From the IMG/VR virus record IMGVR_UViG_2695420624_000001: a stretch of DNA of 4,174 bases; one strand, written 5' to 3'. Source of the stretch: a virus. Lineage: Duplodnaviria > Heunggongvirae > Uroviricota > Caudoviricetes. The notes under the pieces were generated by a model. It had not been told where the DNA came from, did no database searches, and worked only from the letters and a program-made list of their open reading frames with translations. The position numbers and the translations under genes were made by a program. Below are positions 1 to 4,174 of the stretch, in pieces. Positions within the stretch are counted from its first letter, which is position 1, and every line of letters starts with the position of its first letter.

Positions 1-209
1 CATCAAATCACATGATTCTGGCACAATATTCGTAACCAGTAAGCGCATACCCTGAATCACTTAAAAGTGTAACTCTCAGGGTTCGAATGACTATATCTGG
101 CACAAAGCGGACAACCACGCCAGATCTACCCTGTGCCATGAAAAATGAGAATGTCAATTCACTCCTGAACTAATGCTTTTTAATCTAGTAACGTCTAAAA
201 TACCTAACA

Positions 210-611
210 TTATCCCTGATAAAATGCCAGTATGCGCTGCATAACTTCACTCATCCGGCACTCGCGACAGATTATGTTTAGGCGACTGTCGTAGCGACGT
301 ATTTCTCCATCAGGTAACGACCAGATAAGGTCCGGATCAACCACAGCTGTTTTCTTCACCTTTGCCCTCGATAGTTTTTTGCGGGCGTTTTGCCAGTCCT
401 TACGCGCCTGTTCAGACGGGAATAACCCGTAGCCGGAGTTGTATACATCGCCACTGGCTACCAGCTCTCTGGCAAGAACGCTCATCAGATATCTAGTCGC
501 ACCTGTTTTAGCTTCCAGTTGCCGTAACGTCTCACGACCGCTCTGGCGCACGAGTTCCACCACCTGCCCTTTAATTTTTTCCCGCTCTTCTTGTGTAAAA
601 ACTTTTGCCAC
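210..611 (-). CDS. Hypothetical prophage protein (133 aa), last gene of the leftward early operon; the N-terminal half may be a winged-helix/HTH fold; function unknown
   Basis: Long ORF in the track. The start is GTG at 609-611, preceded on the minus strand by a strong Shine-Dalgarno AAGGGGGA (plus 615-622) with a 3-nt spacer; the next in-frame Met is far downstream (residue 43). It lies 40 bp downstream of the O-like gene stop (TAA, 652-654), same strand, consistent with an operon. Stop is TAA at 210-212. No family recognised by eye. Confidence 0.6.
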   Translation of the reverse strand: MAKVFTQEEREKIKGQVVELVRQSGRETLRQLEAKTGATRYLMSVLARELVASGDVYNSGYGLFPSEQARKDWQNARKKLSRAKVKKTAVVDPDLIWSLPDGEIRRYDSRLNIICRECRMSEVMQRILAFYQG

Positions 612-651
612 AAGTCCCCCTTAAAATTACCTCATGACCTGAAATCAAAAC

Positions 652-1617
652 TTATCCTCTGAAACCAGGCGGAATTTCTGTATCCGGTTCAGAAATATGA
701 TTCACACAACGCTGTACAGGTGAACGTCCCAGGCGGATGACCAGTTCGTCCCATTTTTCGCGGAGTTTTGACGGGCTCATGATGTTTTTTACCCAGAATG
801 GATCCCGCTGTACCCGACCAAACATTTCGCAAATTTGTCTGTGGCTTCTGCCATCCAGCATCCGCATTGTGCGCACGTCATTGGCCCAGGCTGTCCAGTT
901 AGGCTCTTTTGGTCGCATGATCTCTCCATCGTCGCTGGCAGCCTGTTCGTAAAGGTTCACGATCCGCCCCCAAATCCACTGCGCACACGCCAAATCCTCC
1001 CTGCTACCCCACTGGCGTTTTTTCACACTAAACACAACCGCGTCGGGGTTCCGGGTTAAAAAATCCTGTTCAGTCGTCTGCGGGTCCGGTTGCGAAGCTT
1101 CCGGACGAAAAGTGTTTTTATTCTCTGTAGTAATCTCTGTTGTATTCTCTGTAAGATCATCAGGCCATTTTGACCCGATGACATTGGGTCGTTTTGAACC
1201 AATGAAGCGTTTCATTTTGACCTCTTCCATCGTGTCATTTTGACCTGATGGAGCGGCGCATTTTGAACCGATGGATTCGTTCAATTTGCCACCATCTAAA
1301 AGCTCGCTCCCATAGTTGATCGTGTAGAAATTGGTCATATCGCGCTTTGATTTATTGAGCTTTTCACAACGCAAAAGCCCCTGCGTTTTCAGACTTGCAA
1401 ACGCGCGTTTTAACGTTGACTCTGACCAGAATGGGAACTGTTCCAGCCATTGTTCCGTTGTGTTATAAATCCAGCGAACACCATCACATTCCATACCGGA
1501 GTTGGTATCTCTCAACCAGTAGTGCAGTTGTTGCAAAACAATGGCTTCGTTTAAGCCGATTTTCATTGCCAGCTGCGTGTTTATAACCAGTGGGCGTTCA
1601 GCAAAAAGAAGACTCAT
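652..1617 (-). CDS. Replication initiator protein, lambda O-like (N-terminal DNA-binding domain, iteron-encoded linker, C-terminal domain); the track ORF extends to 1671 with a TTG start
   Basis: A 339-aa ORF occupies the O position after the cro-like and cII-like genes. Its central part is encoded by the iteron array, giving low-complexity peptide repeats (FIGSKRPNVIGSKWPDD), as in lambda O where ori lies inside the gene. The track start at 1671 is TTG with no SD; the in-frame ATG at 1615-1617 has a partial SD (GGATGG) and is preferred; another ATG at 1564-1566 lacks an SD. Stop is TAA at 652-654. Confidence 0.65.
   Translation of the reverse strand: MSLLFAERPLVINTQLAMKIGLNEAIVLQQLHYWLRDTNSGMECDGVRWIYNTTEQWLEQFPFWSESTLKRAFASLKTQGLLRCEKLNKSKRDMTNFYTINYGSELLDGGKLNESIGSKCAAPSGQNDTMEEVKMKRFIGSKRPNVIGSKWPDDLTENTTEITTENKNTFRPEASQPDPQTTEQDFLTRNPDAVVFSVKKRQWGSREDLACAQWIWGRIVNLYEQAASDDGEIMRPKEPNWTAWANDVRTMRMLDGRSHRQICEMFGRVQRDPFWVKNIMSPSKLREKWDELVIRLGRSPVQRCVNHISEPDTEIPPGFRG
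1119..1154. repeat. AT-rich block with three tandem 12-bp repeats (TATTCTCTGTAG / TAATCTCTGTTG / TATTCTCTGTAA) next to the iterons; candidate DNA-unwinding element of the origin
   Basis: TCTCTGT recurs at 1122-1128, 1134-1140 and 1146-1152 with exact 12-bp phasing, in a locally AT-rich stretch (about 1108-1160) immediately downstream of the iterons in the gene's reading direction, as for the AT-rich region of lambda ori. Confidence 0.45.
1157..1290. repeat. Putative phage origin of replication: five to six direct iterons of about 23 bp, core CATTTTGACC/CGTTTTGAACC, several near-palindromic (e.g. CATTGGGTC-GTTTT-GAACCAATG)
   Basis: Repeat cores seen at 1166-1175, 1190-1200, 1213-1222, 1236-1245 and 1259-1269, with a degenerate copy near 1283-1290; spacing is 23-24 bp. 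Each has a central T4 tract flanked by partial dyad symmetry (CATC...GATG). They lie inside the initiator coding sequence, matching the lambda ori-in-O architecture. Confidence 0.6.
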
Positions 1618-2119
1618 AATTCCATCCAGCTTTTTGTTGGTATTGCTGTCGATACGCAAGCTTGAAAGCAATTGCTTTTTCTATAAGTTCGTCAGTTTCA
1701 CGATCTACAACGGCAGGATCTGCAAAAAGCAGTCCAGATTCCACCACATCGCCATATTCTTTATTTAACCCGGCGATCATGTACGTAATACTTTTTCCAT
1801 CACTGATCTCACGATACAACCTGAAATCACTAATCCGGATAGCCTCCATAATTGCAGGCACTAGCGCTGTGAACTTTTCACGCTTATCCCTGGTGTCGAT
1901 AGCCTTCCAGCGTTCGAATATCTTCACTCGATTAACGCTAAGCGCTCGCTGATCAACCGCGCCACCTTCATATGTGACACGCTGAACATCGATGTTCGGG
2001 CGCTCTTTCAAAGCCCAGAATGCTTCAGTGATTAATATCGTCGCCTGCTCCTGTGTCATTCCTGGTCGACATATCCAGGCATCCAGAGCCTCACGAGCCT
2101 GTTCAGGAGTGATTTTCAT
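1598..2119 (-). CDS. Early-region protein (173 aa) in the cII / YdaT position between the cro-like gene and the replication initiator; putative CII-like/YdaT-family regulator
   Basis: Long ORF with ATG at 2117-2119, overlapping the upstream DicC-like stop (TGA 2103-2105) by 17 nt, which suggests translational coupling. Its own stop is TGA at 1598-1600, overlapping the start of the O-like gene. The family call is by position and size only. Confidence 0.6.
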   Translation of the reverse strand: MKITPEQAREALDAWICRPGMTQEQATILITEAFWALKERPNIDVQRVTYEGGAVDQRALSVNRVKIFERWKAIDTRDKREKFTALVPAIMEAIRISDFRLYREISDGKSITYMIAGLNKEYGDVVESGLLFADPAVVDRETDELIEKAIAFKLAYRQQYQQKAGWNYESSFC

Positions 2120-2330
2120 TGTTCAACCGCCCCGTCCGCTTCGTCTTACGATATTCGTCATAAACTTTGGGATCATACTGAAGCTCCCCGCCAGATGCCT
2201 CCTGTAGACGCATCGCGCGACCTTCAGGAACCAGTATCCCCCAGGCAGCAACACTTGCCAGTCTCACTCCTGCGGCATTGGCAAGCTTTGTTTTGCTGCC
2301 AAAAAAAGTAATTGCGTCAACTTTAAGCAT
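2103..2330 (-). CDS. dicC: Cro-like small DNA-binding regulator, DicC/YdaS family (75 aa from the ATG at 2328-2330; the track ORF starts one codon earlier at a TTG)
   Basis: Small ORF divergent from the DicA-like repressor. A strong SD AGAGGGGG (plus 2336-2343) sits 5 nt upstream of the ATG. A sigma70-like promoter lies on the minus strand upstream. Size and position match dicC relative to dicA in Qin. Confidence 0.6.
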   Translation of the reverse strand: MLKVDAITFFGSKTKLANAAGVRLASVAAWGILVPEGRAMRLQEASGGELQYDPKVYDEYRKTKRTGRLNNENHS

Positions 2331-2343
2331 CAAAGCCCCCTCT

Positions 2344-2361
2344 TGTTAGACTTTTCTAACA
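2344..2361. promoter_or_regulatory. Operator-like palindrome O1, TGTTAG-N6-CTAACA (perfect dyad), in the dicC-dicA intergenic region
   Basis: TGTTAG at 2344-2349 and CTAACA at 2356-2361 are exact reverse complements separated by 6 bp. The site overlaps the predicted -10 and transcription start of the leftward dicC promoter. The same 18-bp motif recurs twice downstream of dicA. Confidence 0.55.
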
Positions 2362-2388
2362 TTATTGTGCGCGGGATACCTAAGTCAA
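2361..2388 (-). promoter_or_regulatory. Putative sigma70 promoter of the leftward (dicC-like) operon: -35 TTGACT and -10 AATAAT with a 16-bp spacer
   Basis: Minus-strand sequence reads TTGACT (plus 2383-2388), 16 nt, AATAAT (plus 2361-2366), about 25 nt upstream of the SD of the dicC-like gene. The -10 abuts operator O1. Confidence 0.4.
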
Positions 2389-2410
2389 GAAAAATTAGAA
2401 TTACCTAACT

Positions 2411-2818
2411 ATGGATACAAGAACCCTAGGCCAGCGAGTTCTGGCGCGACGAAAAGAATTACGCTTAACACAACGAGAAGCTGCGCGCCTCGCTGGAGTT
2501 GCTCACGTCACAATTTCACAATGGGAAAGAGACGAAACCCAGCCAGTCGGAAAACGATTGTTTGCTTTAGCGGATGCTCTGAAGTGCTCACCTACATGGC
2601 TAATGTTTGGTGATGAAGACAAGGCACCAGTGCCTGCACAAGAACTTCATGTGGAAACAGAGCTAACTCCCAACCACAAAGAATTGATCGAATTATTCGA
2701 TGCTCTTCCATCTTCCGAGCAGGAAGCCTTGCTGTCTGAAATGCGCGCAAGAGTAGAAAACTTCAACAAACTCTTCGAAGAAATGCTTAAAGCGCGTAAA
2801 AATAAATCAATAAAATAA
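2411..2818 (+). CDS. dicA: HTH XRE-family repressor, DicA-like (135 aa), the cI-analogous immunity repressor of this prophage
   Basis: ORF of 135 aa. The N-terminal helix-turn-helix (LTQREAARLAGVAHVTISQWER) and the conserved blocks LFAL...CSPTW..FGDEDK and ELFDALP.SEQ...EMRARV.NFNKLFEE..KAR match DicA of E. coli Qin as recalled from memory, with the same length. It is divergent from a Cro-like gene. Stop is TAA at 2816-2818. Confidence 0.8.
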   Translation: MDTRTLGQRVLARRKELRLTQREAARLAGVAHVTISQWERDETQPVGKRLFALADALKCSPTWLMFGDEDKAPVPAQELHVETELTPNHKELIELFDALPSSEQEALLSEMRARVENFNKLFEEMLKARKNKSIK

Positions 2819-2854
2819 CATTCTTTTCAAGTGATTAGTTGCGCCCACTCTTTT

Positions 2855-2872
2855 TGTTAGACCAACCTAACA
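2855..2872. promoter_or_regulatory. Operator-like palindrome O2, TGTTAG-accaac-CTAACA (perfect; extended arms TTTGTTAG/CTAACAAA at 2853-2874)
   Basis: Same half-sites and 6-bp spacer as O1, located just upstream of the predicted -35 of the rightward ydfA-ydfB promoter. Confidence 0.5.
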
Positions 2873-2880
2873 AAAAACAC

Positions 2881-2909
2881 TTGCCTCTCATGTTAGGTTA
2901 TTCTAAATT
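2881..2909 (+). promoter_or_regulatory. Putative repressor-controlled promoter of the rightward ydfA-ydfB (dicB-type) operon
   Basis: -35 TTGCCT (2881-2886), 17-bp spacer, -10 TAAATT (2904-2909), overlapped by O3 and preceded by O2. This is analogous to the DicA-repressed dicB-operon promoter in Qin. The hexamers are only moderate matches to consensus. Confidence 0.35.
2891..2908. promoter_or_regulatory. Operator-like site O3, TGTTAG-gttatt-CTAAAT (right half-site degenerate, 4 of 6)
   Basis: Same left half-site and spacer length as O1/O2. It lies between the predicted -35 TTGCCT (2881-2886) and -10 TAAATT (2904-2909) of the rightward promoter, where a repressor operator would sit. Confidence 0.4.
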
Positions 2910-2986
2910 ACTTTCCATCAAGACACCGCACGGTGTTCTCAGCAAACAGTTCCGCTACCCCGGCGTTAAGGGGAAATGAGGTCAGC

Positions 2987-3142
2987 ATGGATACTATCGA
3001 TCTTGGCAACAACGAATCTCTGGTATGCGGCGTGTTTCCCAACCAAGACGGCACGTTCACCGCGATGACGTATACCAAAAGCAAAACGTTTAAAACCGAA
3101 GCTGGCGCGCATCGCTGGCTGGAAAGAAATTCAGGTGAGTGA
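2987..3142 (+). CDS. ydfA: YdfA-like small protein (51 aa), first gene of the dicB-type operon downstream of dicA
   Basis: The ATG at 2987-2989 is preceded by GAGG (2978-2981). The track ORF (2933..3142) starts at an upstream GTG without an SD, so the shorter form is preferred. Size (51 aa) and position immediately downstream of dicA match ydfA of Qin as recalled. Stop is TGA at 3140-3142. Confidence 0.6.
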   Translation: MDTIDLGNNESLVCGVFPNQDGTFTAMTYTKSKTFKTEAGAHRWLERNSGE

Positions 3143-3143
3143 T

Positions 3144-3272
3144 ATGGATTTCGACGCAATCATGGAAAAGGCTTACGAAGAATACTTCGAAGGCCTTGCC
3201 GAAGGCGAAGAAGCTCTCAGCTTCAGCGAATTTAAACAGGCGCTTTCCAGTTCGGCAAAAGCTAACAACTGA
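3144..3272 (+). CDS. ydfB: YdfB-like small protein (42 aa): MDFDAIMEKAYEEYFEGLAEGEEALSFSEFKQALSSSAKANN
   Basis: Not in the ORF track (too short); found by manual translation. The ATG at 3144-3146 lies 1 nt after the ydfA stop (TGAtATG), with GGTGAG upstream. It is 42 codons to TGA at 3270-3272. Size and position match ydfB of Qin as recalled. The acidic, helical-looking composition is plausible for a small protein. Confidence 0.55.
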   Translation: MDFDAIMEKAYEEYFEGLAEGEEALSFSEFKQALSSSAKANN

Positions 3273-3342
3273 GAGGTTTATGATGGAATTGAGAGTTTGT
3301 TTCAAACTCTCAATAAACCAGAGGCAGGTAAGGAGCGTTAAA

Positions 3343-3362
3343 TTATTGCTTGAAAGCAATAA
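3343..3362 (-). terminator. Hairpin (8-bp perfect stem TTATTGCT/AGCAATAA, 4-nt loop) immediately 3' of the 177-aa minus-strand gene; possible weak intrinsic terminator
   Basis: Perfect inverted repeat at 3343-3350 and 3355-3362, 2 nt beyond the TGA stop (3365-3367) of the minus-strand gene. On the minus strand it is followed by TTTAA only, so the U-tract is short, and the stem is AT-rich. Confidence 0.3.
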
Positions 3363-3364
3363 GA

Positions 3365-3898
3365 TCACTCAATCTCACCGCTATAGGCATTCCATCTGAG
3401 CATGAGGGTACGCCAGAAAATATCGTTTATGTGCAAAACACAGTATGGATTTTCGTCGGGAAGGAGTTGCCCTTCCATGGGGAGCAAAATATTAGTAGAT
3501 ACCAGTTTTTTTATATCAGAATCATTGCGTACAGCATGGATCACAGGATAGTTCCTCGATAATGCCGTAATAAGAATTTTTTTCTGACCCGCAGTCAAGG
3601 AATCGATAACTGCATTGATATGACTGATTGTTTTTTGTTCTCTTGTATTGTTCCGGTGACTTCGCCAGACCTTACGAAGAAATAAAGCTAAACGTTGGAG
3701 ATTTATAGCCAGCACAAAAGAAAAGGCAAAAACGAATACCGGGTAAATATAAGGAATGCTGATTTTGTCTTGAACATACTCCGGTACAGAATCAGGCATA
3801 AAGAGCAATATCAAAACAAAGATAATAAGCATATACATAAGGCGCTCTAAGGGTTCGTTACTGAATAACTTGCTCAACAAGCCGAATACATCAGGCAT
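3365..3898 (-). CDS. sieB: Two-transmembrane membrane protein (177 aa) in an AT-rich island; SieB-like (superinfection exclusion protein B) by architecture and synteny
   Basis: Long ORF with ATG at 3896-3898 and GAGAG upstream. Two hydrophobic segments (about residues 20-36 LMYMLIIFVLILLFMP and 49-72 IPYIYPVFVFAFSFVLAINL) precede a soluble C-terminal domain of about 100 aa. It is markedly more AT-rich than its neighbours. It is oriented opposite to the rightward early operon and points back toward the repressor, as sieB does relative to racR/kilR in Rac. The symbol is a position-and-architecture call, not a verified alignment. Confidence 0.5.
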   Translation of the reverse strand: MPDVFGLLSKLFSNEPLERLMYMLIIFVLILLFMPDSVPEYVQDKISIPYIYPVFVFAFSFVLAINLQRLALFLRKVWRSHRNNTREQKTISHINAVIDSLTAGQKKILITALSRNYPVIHAVRNDSDIKKLVSTNILLPMEGQLLPDENPYCVLHINDIFWRTLMLRWNAYSGEIE

Positions 3899-4010
3899 AT
3901 TAATAACTCTCTACTGTAAGGGTATTAAAATGCTATCACAGACTCTCGCTGTAGGGGTATAGCCGAGACCACCGAGCCTGAAGTGGTAAAAAGACAGGCA
4001 CACAACACGA

Positions 4011-4074
4011 AAGCGCACGGCGAGGCTGTTAGTTCATAAATGGTCTGTCGTTAAATTTTCGTCGACCGTGCGCT
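4011..4074. other. Long-range perfect inverted repeat AAGCGCACGG (4011-4020) / CCGTGCGCTT (4065-4074) enclosing a 44-nt AT-richer loop, within a GC-rich non-coding stretch
   Basis: Exact 10-bp reverse-complement arms seen directly. The surrounding 3940-4174 also holds small GC hairpins (CCGCG-aaatgg-CGCGG at 4090-4105; CGGGG-N9-CCCCG at 4118-4136). No ATG-initiated ORF of meaningful length on either strand. Confidence 0.3.
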
Positions 4075-4174
4075 TCCGGTTGTGGCAATCCGCGAAATGG
4101 CGCGGCGGTAAGTATGGCGGGGTTATTCCTTCCCCGTTGAGGACACCGGGTTGTCAGGTTGACCATACGCTTAA

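What the first reader, a model, noticed from the sequence alone, without database searches (positions are those of the whole stretch)
3280..3940. AT-rich cargo island with a reverse-oriented two-TM gene replaces the expected ydfC-dicF-dicB segment
After ydfA and ydfB the rightward operon does not continue as it does in Qin (ydfC, dicF sRNA, dicB, as I recall it). Base composition drops sharply from about 3280, and a 177-aa protein with two N-terminal transmembrane helices and a soluble C-terminal domain is encoded on the opposite strand. That is the position and orientation of sieB in Rac, and a typical moron or defence slot next to the immunity repressor. Whether it is an ordinary SieB orthologue or a divergent exclusion or abortive-infection protein cannot be settled by eye, which makes it the best candidate in this window for an uncharacterised phage-defence function.
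Basis: partly seen in the sequence, partly recalled or inferred. Interest (0 to 1): 0.7.

Follow-up and report, generated by a model that had tools for sequence, protein, structure and literature searches.

The report
Ordinary SieB exclusion gene with sas
The reverse-oriented membrane-protein gene is an already annotated member of the SieB family, which prophages use to abort infection by rival phages, and it comes with its usual antisense-RNA partner, so it is an ordinary lambdoid prophage module and not a new defence system.

Summary
The ORF is real: window 3365-3898, minus strand, 177 aa, two N-terminal hydrophobic helices, inside the most AT-rich 660-nt stretch of the window (GC 0.38 against 0.47).

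It is a SieB-family protein:
- Pfam PF14163 scores 57.5 bits against a cut-off of 26.
- PHROG 6399 'SieB' matches at full length, E 4.7e-37.
- It is 33% identical over its full length to the studied lambda SieB.
- The exact sequence is already in NCBI as WP_053882529.1, 'super-infection exclusion protein B'.

The rest of the known module is also present. In-frame ATGs at codons 21 and 23 align with the P22 Esc start. On the plus strand, about 3894-4002 is homologous to the P22 sas antisense RNA (90% over 60 nt).

The cassette (about 3273-3990) replaces only ydfC. DicF is not lost. In contigs identical to the window, DicF starts 37 nt past the window end, and one of them carries an intact dicB.

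The slot between ydfB and dicF is variable in E. coli. ydfC is the usual occupant, and this sieB allele is in 12 of 5426 complete genomes.

A structure model suggests a C-terminal winged-helix-like cytoplasmic domain. The killing mechanism of SieB is unknown.

Verdict: ordinary, already known, low interest.

The parts
3365..3898 (-). sieB: 177-aa inner-membrane superinfection exclusion (abortive infection) protein
   Evidence: ORF. Pfam SieB PF14163, 57.5 bits against a cut-off of 26. PHROG 6399 SieB, E 4.7e-37, residues 3-176. 33% identity over 175 aa to lambda SieB. 38% over the N-terminal 135 aa to Rac SieB. Exact sequence is WP_053882529.1, 'super-infection exclusion protein B'. Best viral fold match is P22 SieB, Q38660.
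3365..3838 (-). Putative Esc-like internal reading frame: in-frame ATGs at codon 21 (3838-3836) and codon 23 (3832-3830), giving a 157- or 155-aa N-terminally truncated product
   Evidence: P22 Esc is annotated as SieB minus its first 24 codons. P22 Met25 aligns with window Met23. Met21 is invariant and Met23 is at least 90% conserved among 14 homologues. Translation from these codons is inferred, not shown, and there is no strong Shine-Dalgarno sequence upstream.
3894..4002 (+). Homologue of the P22 sas antisense RNA. Its 5' part is complementary to the sieB start codon and leader. Its conserved 3' part (3944-4002) lies over and upstream of the likely sieB promoter.
   Evidence: P22 sas sequence from PMC13397905 Table 2. 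sas nt 56-113 against window 3944-4002 gives 54/60 identities (90%), E 2e-12. The multiple alignment with P22, lambda, Rac, HK620, 611R5 and a Klebsiella phage shows the same element 5' of each sieB-like gene. The ends are set by analogy with P22 and are not mapped.
3907..3911 (-). Shine-Dalgarno-like GAGAG, 8 nt upstream of the sieB ATG
   Evidence: Read directly from the sequence.
3921..3957 (-). Probable sieB promoter region, by position relative to the annotated P22 sieB promoter
   Evidence: The P22 promoter feature 'sieB RNA start site' corresponds to sas nt 43-73, which aligns to about this stretch. The consensus sigma-70 scan found no site here, so this part is weak and inferred.
3288..3362 (.). 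Two perfect hairpins between the converging ydfB and sieB genes: 3288-3314 (12-bp stem) and 3343-3362 (9-bp stem, 2 nt after the sieB stop)
   Evidence: Neither is followed by a proper T-run, so a terminator role is only a guess.
3273..3990 (.). Extent of the sieB+sas cassette that stands in place of ydfC
   Evidence: The alignment with a ydfC-type prophage loses similarity at the ydfB stop codon and regains it at about 3985-4000. Phage matches to the right flank start at window 3968 or 3989.
4003..4174 (+). Conserved sequence upstream of dicF (context, not cargo). DicF itself starts 37 nt past the window end.
   Evidence: No Rfam family is found inside the window itself.
2987..3272 (+). ydfA (2987-3142) and ydfB (3144-3272), the rightward operon that runs antisense into sieB (context)
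   Evidence: Pfam DUF1391, E 1.9e-29. PHROG 2061. RefSeq annotation of the near-identical locus.

Best explanation
Window 3273 to about 4002 is a complete SieB/Esc-sas superinfection-exclusion module of a Qin/Rac-type lambdoid prophage. It sits between ydfB and the dicF precursor, where most relatives carry ydfC.

Shown here:
- The gene encodes a SieB-family protein with a conserved N-terminal peptide (KLFSNEPLERLMYM), two membrane helices, a long helix and a C-terminal winged-helix-like domain.
- It has in-frame ATGs where P22 starts Esc.
- The DNA over and upstream of its start is homologous to the P22 sas antisense RNA.

Inferred by homology with P22 and lambda:
- In the lysogen, sieB is transcribed from its own promoter, against the direction of the DicA-repressed ydfAB-dicF-dicB operon.
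- The protein sits in the inner membrane.
- When a heterologous lambdoid phage infects, SieB is triggered midway through the lytic cycle and stops cellular macromolecular synthesis, so the infection aborts.
- The prophage's own lytic growth escapes. Rightward transcription yields the sas-like RNA, which pairs with the sieB leader and start. Translation then shifts to the truncated Esc-like product, which inhibits SieB.

My own speculation:
- The cytoplasmic winged-helix domain is the sensor.
- The N-terminal peptide, which Esc lacks, together with the membrane helices is the effector.
For: Family assignment:
- Pfam above the curated cut-off and a full-length PHROG SieB match.
- Full-length 33% identity to lambda SieB.
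- The exact protein is named SieB in NCBI.
- Orthologues of the same 177-aa length at 46-62% identity in Yersinia, Citrobacter and Hafnia.

Context:
- Same position and orientation as sieB in Rac and lambda.

Esc:
- P22 annotation, the alignment of start codons and the invariant Met21.
- The literature statement that Esc is encoded in frame within sieB and inhibits it (PMC3224144).

sas:
- Published P22 sequence (PMC13397905).
- 90% identity over 60 nt, E 2e-12.
- The element is present 5' of sieB-like genes in 143 phage records.
- Its role as a translational switch is described in PMC12197685 and PMC7067206.

Phenotype of the family:
- Macromolecular synthesis stops midway through the lytic cycle (PMC10883804).

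Fold:
- AlphaFold2 mean pLDDT 81.
- Best viral match is P22 SieB.
Against: - No function was tested.
- The nine nearest complete genomes carry a 1-nt deletion in the A7 run (3506-3512), which truncates the protein to 156 aa. The allele is therefore dispensable in some lineages.
- No sigma-70 consensus promoter was found for sieB or for sas.
- The putative Esc start has no clear ribosome-binding site.
- Only the 3' 60 nt of sas is strongly conserved. The consensus fold of seven homologues has almost no covariation support.
- Identity to the founding member, P22 SieB, is only 19% in the multiple alignment.
- PADLOC has no model that matches.
Confidence: 0.85

Rival explanations
1. The gene is a decaying remnant. 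It belongs to the SieB family but no longer works in this cryptic prophage, and it is kept only by hitch-hiking.
For: - The nearest complete genomes (H1-H9) have a frameshift in the A7 run and a 156-aa product.
- The cluster also holds 59-, 96- and 118-aa fragments.
- In some carriers dicB is truncated, so the prophage is partly degraded.
- The allele is rare: 12 of 5426 complete genomes.
Against: - In this window the ORF is intact and matches the SieB profile end to end.
- A 177-aa variant in the same 90%-identity cluster is seen on 403 contigs.
- Orthologues in other genera keep the same length.
- The leader, the start codons and the sas-like element are all intact.
Confidence: 0.1
2. The protein is a divergent SieB-fold protein with a different job from P22/lambda-type abortive infection, for example blocking DNA entry or acting on cell division together with DicF/DicB/Kil.
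For: - Only 33% identical to lambda SieB and 19% to P22 SieB.
- The C-terminal half is poorly conserved with Rac SieB.
- The SieB mechanism is unknown, so functional drift cannot be excluded.
- The gene is embedded in a division-inhibitor operon.
Against: - The whole regulatory apparatus that makes sense only for SieB-type self-immunity is kept: the Esc-type start and the sas homologue.
- The N-terminal motif and architecture are shared with lambda SieB over the full length.
- No other family matches.
Confidence: 0.05

Closest known systems
Bacteriophage lambda SieB (git), NP_597779.1
   Same: - 33% identity and 55% similarity over 175 of 177 residues.
- Same N-terminal FSNEPLER-MYM motif, two membrane helices and overall length (184 against 177 aa).
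- Encoded antisense inside the early leftward-type operon, beside the immunity region.
- A sas-like element lies immediately 5' of the gene.
   Different: - Different neighbours: N and ral in lambda, ydfB and dicF here.
- DicA/DicC-type immunity instead of cI/cro.
- The sequence is too diverged for DNA-level matching.
Salmonella phage P22 SieB / Esc / sas system (Ranade and Poteete 1993, as cited in PMC3224144 and PMC12197685)
   Same: - Same architecture and fold (Foldseek probability 1.0, E 2.5e-4 to Q38660).
- The internal Met aligns with the Esc start.
- sas 3' 58 nt is 90% identical.
   Different: - Protein identity is only 19%.
- The 5' half of sas differs, as it must if it pairs with its own leader.
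- Nothing about expression or phenotype is known for this allele.
Rac prophage SieB (E. coli K-12 b1353, WP_001312793.1)
   Same: - Same slot and orientation: after the ydaF/ydfA-type genes and before kil.
- Window 3885-3991 is 86% identical at DNA level to the Rac sieB start and upstream region, in 1359 genomes.
- 38% protein identity over the N-terminal 135 aa.
   Different: - The C-terminal domain is essentially unalignable by BLASTP.
- Rac SieB is 162 aa.
- Rac has Thr at the position of Met23.
Qin-type ydfABC-dicF-dicB operon
   Same: - DicA (224.7 bits) and DicC (164 bits) regulators.
- ydfA, ydfB, the pre-dicF sequence and DicF itself are all kept.
   Different: ydfC is replaced by the oppositely oriented sieB+sas cassette.

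Membership tests
SieB superinfection exclusion protein (Pfam PF14163 / PHROG 6399) | Scores above the curated family threshold | tested here: met
   PF14163 scores 57.5 bits against a gathering cut-off of 26, E 1.5e-15. PHROG 6399 matches at E 4.7e-37 over residues 3-176 of 177.
SieB superinfection exclusion protein (Pfam PF14163 / PHROG 6399) | Full-length similarity to an experimentally studied member | tested here: met
   Lambda SieB: 33% identity over 175 aa, pairwise E 2e-32, and tblastn E 5e-17 in the phage collection. P22 SieB: only 19% in the multiple alignment, but it is the best viral fold match.
SieB superinfection exclusion protein (Pfam PF14163 / PHROG 6399) | Small inner-membrane protein with two N-terminal membrane helices and a cytoplasmic C-terminal part | tested here: met
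   Hydropathy peaks at residues 16-40 and 46-74. Model helices at 16-33 and 51-99. The topology (both ends in the cytoplasm) is inferred from the basic stretch after helix 2 and was not computed with a dedicated predictor.
SieB superinfection exclusion protein (Pfam PF14163 / PHROG 6399) | Encoded near the immunity region, antisense to the early operon | tested here: met
   The gene is about 550 nt downstream of the DicA-type repressor gene and converges on ydfA-ydfB. The arrangement is the same in Rac, lambda and P22.
SieB/Esc/sas system of P22 | In-frame internal start giving the truncated inhibitor Esc | tested here: inconclusive
   The ATGs at codons 21 and 23 align with the P22 Esc start and are conserved. 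Whether they are used cannot be told from the sequence.
SieB/Esc/sas system of P22 | Antisense RNA sas overlapping the sieB start | tested here: met
   Sequence homologue on the plus strand: 54/60 identities with sas nt 56-113, E 2e-12, collinear in the alignment through the start codon. Transcription and RNA ends are not testable here. Rfam has no sas family.
SieB/Esc/sas system of P22 | Aborts lytic growth of heterologous phages while the resident phage is immune | not testable with these tools
   This needs plating and burst assays.
DicF sRNA (Rfam RF00039) | Covariance-model match within the window | tested here: not met
   No Rfam match in the window at E up to 1. DicF lies 37 nt beyond the window end in identical contigs.
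Catalogued anti-phage defence systems (PADLOC-DB 2.0.0) | Match to any defence-protein model | tested here: not met
   0 families matched at E up to 0.01.
Winged-helix (wHTH) domain | C-terminal domain superposes on solved winged-helix domains | tested here: inconclusive

The most novel reading that the evidence does not exclude
SieB may be a membrane-tethered winged-helix sensor. Its cytoplasmic C-terminal domain would recognise a phage nucleic acid or protein made mid-cycle. The 20-residue conserved N-terminal peptide, which is exactly the part that Esc lacks, would be the effector or gate that collapses the membrane.

In this Qin/Rac hybrid, a single DicA-repressed transcript would carry both the sas-like RNA and DicF. 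Induction would then switch off self-exclusion and block cell division in one step.
Probability: 0.2. Interest if true: 0.4.

Novelty: already known. Interest (0 to 1): 0.12.

Why it matters
It matters little for discovery. The gene is a named SieB protein in NCBI, and its family, position and regulatory partners match the system described in 1993.

It is useful for three smaller reasons:
- It corrects the record for this window: dicF and dicB are not lost.
- It shows that the slot between ydfB and dicF is an exchange point for small cassettes.
- It shows that the sas antisense RNA, which Rfam does not hold and the RefSeq loci I inspected do not annotate, is conserved in Rac- and Qin-type prophages of E. 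coli.

How SieB kills is still unknown. A compact allele with a predicted winged-helix domain could serve as a study object, but nothing here makes that question newly testable.

Tried and rejected
- **Rfam on the window** at E up to 1 found nothing. The GC-rich structured tail at 3960-4174 is therefore not a catalogued RNA. I had briefly wondered about a retron msr/msd or DicF. It turned out to be the sas 3' part plus the pre-dicF sequence.
- **NCBIfam and PADLOC** gave no hit for the 177-aa protein.
- **The promoter and terminator scan** of 2800-4174 found no sigma-70 consensus site and no terminator in the cassette. The promoters are placed only by analogy with P22.
- **RNAalifold** on seven sas homologues gave a weak consensus: -8.8 kcal/mol, with one pair showing a two-sided change. 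Single-sequence folds are only marginally better than shuffles for the window (z = -1.58). I make no claim about sas structure.
- **A profile search against solved structures** gave nothing significant.
- **The afdb50 fold library** was unavailable.
- **The original papers** of Ranade and Poteete (PMC204922) and of Faubladier and Bouché (PMC205167) are not held. Statements about them come from papers that cite them.
- **The plus-strand 70-aa ORF** at 3350-3562, antisense to sieB, has no family match and was dropped.
- **A check for sieB/sas remnants** in one other slot variant found none (L012). In that call the other three loci (L013, L014, L002) were not available to the script and were not searched.

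Full report
**1. Observation**

The window holds a 177-aa ORF at 3365-3898 on the minus strand.
- A Kyte-Doolittle scan gives two hydrophobic segments, at about residues 16-40 and 46-74. A basic stretch (RKVWRSHRNNTREQK) follows them.
- GC is 0.381 for 3280-3940 against 0.471 for 200-3270, and the lowest 661-nt window of the whole sequence starts at 3276.
- The fall is gradual in the 200-nt profile.
- The ORF, its membrane character and the AT-rich composition are therefore real.

- a DicA-type repressor (NCBIfam 224.7 bits) and a DicC-type Cro (164 bits)
- ydfA (Pfam DUF1391) and ydfB (PHROG 2061) running rightward into the 3' end of the ORF

**2. What the protein is**
- Pfam SieB (PF14163) scores 57.5 bits against a curated cut-off of 26.
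- PHROG 6399, 'SieB superinfection exclusion', matches residues 3-176 at E 4.7e-37.
- tblastn against 50,697 phage records finds lambda SieB and its copies at 33% identity over 99% of the query. The pairwise alignment is collinear from residue 3 to 177.
- Rac SieB is 38% identical over the N-terminal 135 residues and then diverges.
- The exact 177-aa sequence is in NCBI as WP_053882529.1, 'super-infection exclusion protein B [Escherichia coli]'. Its 90%-identity cluster has 44 members, one of them seen on 403 contigs.
- Same-length orthologues at 46-62% identity occur in Yersinia, Citrobacter and Hafnia, all named SieB.
- PADLOC and NCBIfam have no model for it.

**3. What it replaces**

I aligned the window with the 99.6%-identical E. 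coli AR_0017 locus and with a ydfC-type prophage.
- Similarity to the ydfC type stops at the ydfB stop codon (about 3272) and resumes at about 3985-4000.
- From there to the window end, the sequence is the conserved stretch that precedes dicF.
- Rfam places DicF (76.7 bits) 37 nt beyond the window end in AR_0017.
- It does the same in three contigs that encode the identical protein and are identical to window 3273-4174. One of these also has an intact dicB. The others go on to kilR and a recE-like exonuclease.

So the cassette replaces ydfC only. The statement that dicF and dicB are replaced is an effect of where the window ends.

**4. The slot is variable**

I searched with the two flanks joined (ydfA-ydfB plus 4000-4174).
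- 2664 of 5426 complete E. coli genomes hold both flanks in one place.
- In a spread sample of 60 records, the usual filling is ydfC (span about 839 nt).
- Other fillings seen:
  - an unannotated stretch of about 500 nt
  - a pair of hypothetical genes of 121 and 66 aa
  - a deletion form in O157:H7
  - this sieB cassette
- The cassette itself is in 12 of 5426 genomes at 80% coverage or more.
- Its 5' end and upstream region (3885-3991) are 86% identical to the corresponding part of Rac sieB in 1359 genomes.

**5. The rest of the module**

A 2026 paper gives the sequence of the P22 sas antisense RNA (PMC13397905, Table 2).
- Its nt 56-113 match window 3944-4002 on the plus strand at 54/60 identities, E 2e-12.
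- The alignment continues collinearly to the complement of the sieB start codon.
- The same element lies directly 5' of the sieB-like gene in lambda, HK620, vB_EcoM-611R5, a Klebsiella phage and Rac, and is found in 143 phage records.

In an annotated P22 record, Esc is SieB without its first 24 codons, and the sieB promoter lies inside the sas region.
- P22 Met25 aligns with Met23 of the window protein.
- Met21 is invariant and Met23 is nearly invariant in 14 homologues.

The literature describes the following:
- SieB stops macromolecular synthesis midway through the lytic cycle of superinfecting P22-like phages (PMC10883804).
- Esc is an in-frame product that inhibits SieB (PMC3224144).
- sas is the antisense RNA that switches translation between the two (PMC12197685; PMC7067206).

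All three sequence components are present here. Their expression is inferred.

**6. Structure**

An AlphaFold2 model from a 14-sequence alignment has mean pLDDT 81. It shows:
- a short N-terminal helix
- a membrane helix at 16-33
- a short helix at 37-46
- a long helix at 51-99 (second membrane span plus a stalk)
- a compact alpha/beta domain at 103-168

Fold comparisons:
- Foldseek against viral models puts P22 SieB first.
- There is no sequence-level link to solved structures.

I treat the winged-helix reading as a moderate-confidence lead for how SieB might sense infection, not as a finding.

**7. Caveats**
- The nine nearest complete genomes have one A fewer in the A7 run at 3506-3512, giving a 156-aa frameshifted product that RefSeq still names SieB. 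The window allele is the intact form.
- The consensus scan found no sigma-70 promoter or intrinsic terminator in the cassette.
- Two perfect hairpins lie between ydfB and sieB.
- The consensus fold of the sas homologues has almost no covariation support.

**8. Verdict**

This is an ordinary, already annotated SieB gene with its Esc-type start and sas-type antisense element, sitting in a variable slot of a Qin/Rac-type prophage. The claimed loss of dicF and dicB, and the hope of an uncharacterised defence function, are not supported. Interest is low.

Noticed in passing
window 3506-3512: This is a run of seven T on the plus strand (A7 in sieB codons 129-131). The nine closest complete E. coli genomes have six, which frameshifts SieB to 156 aa. 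The run may be a mutational hot spot, or even a switch.
   Followed up: partly
window 3914-3924 and 3949-3959: The box CTGTA(A/G)GGGTA occurs twice, 35 nt apart, in the sas-like region. Both copies are conserved in P22, lambda, HK620, 611R5 and Rac. Its role is unknown.
   Followed up: no
window 3288-3314 and 3343-3362: Two perfect hairpins (12-bp and 9-bp stems) lie between the converging ydfB and sieB genes, without T-runs. They might stabilise or end transcripts from either side.
   Followed up: no
window 4003-4174; L003 about 3130-3330: The pre-dicF sequence is about 90-95% identical in the E. coli genomes sampled. Rac keeps a diverged copy that ends in a DicF-terminator-like GCCCTTTTTAAAGTGAATTT. 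Rac therefore seems to carry a dicF remnant right after its sas-like element.
   Followed up: no
window 1598-2119: The YdaT-family gene is 173 aa here and 169 aa in the 99.6%-identical AR_0017 locus. This fits the 13-nt length difference between the two sequences, of which I located only the 1-nt one; the other 12 nt probably lie in this gene.
   Followed up: no
window 1-95: The first 95 nt do not match the otherwise near-identical genomes, whose matches start at 96-98. There is a recombination joint next to the DUF977 gene.
   Followed up: no
L012 560-1080; L013 465-999; L014 454-680: Other fillings of the ydfB-dicF slot in E. coli are an unannotated stretch of about 500 nt, a 121-aa plus 66-aa pair of hypothetical genes, and a deletion form in O157:H7. 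None was examined further.
   Followed up: partly
L011 901-935 (phage SfV): Only the 3' 35 nt of sas (CCACCGAGCCTGA.GTGGTTAAAAGACAGGCAC) is present in SfV and some other phages that have no annotated sieB gene at that place. This piece may have a role of its own, for example as a terminator or processing site in the early left operon.
   Followed up: no
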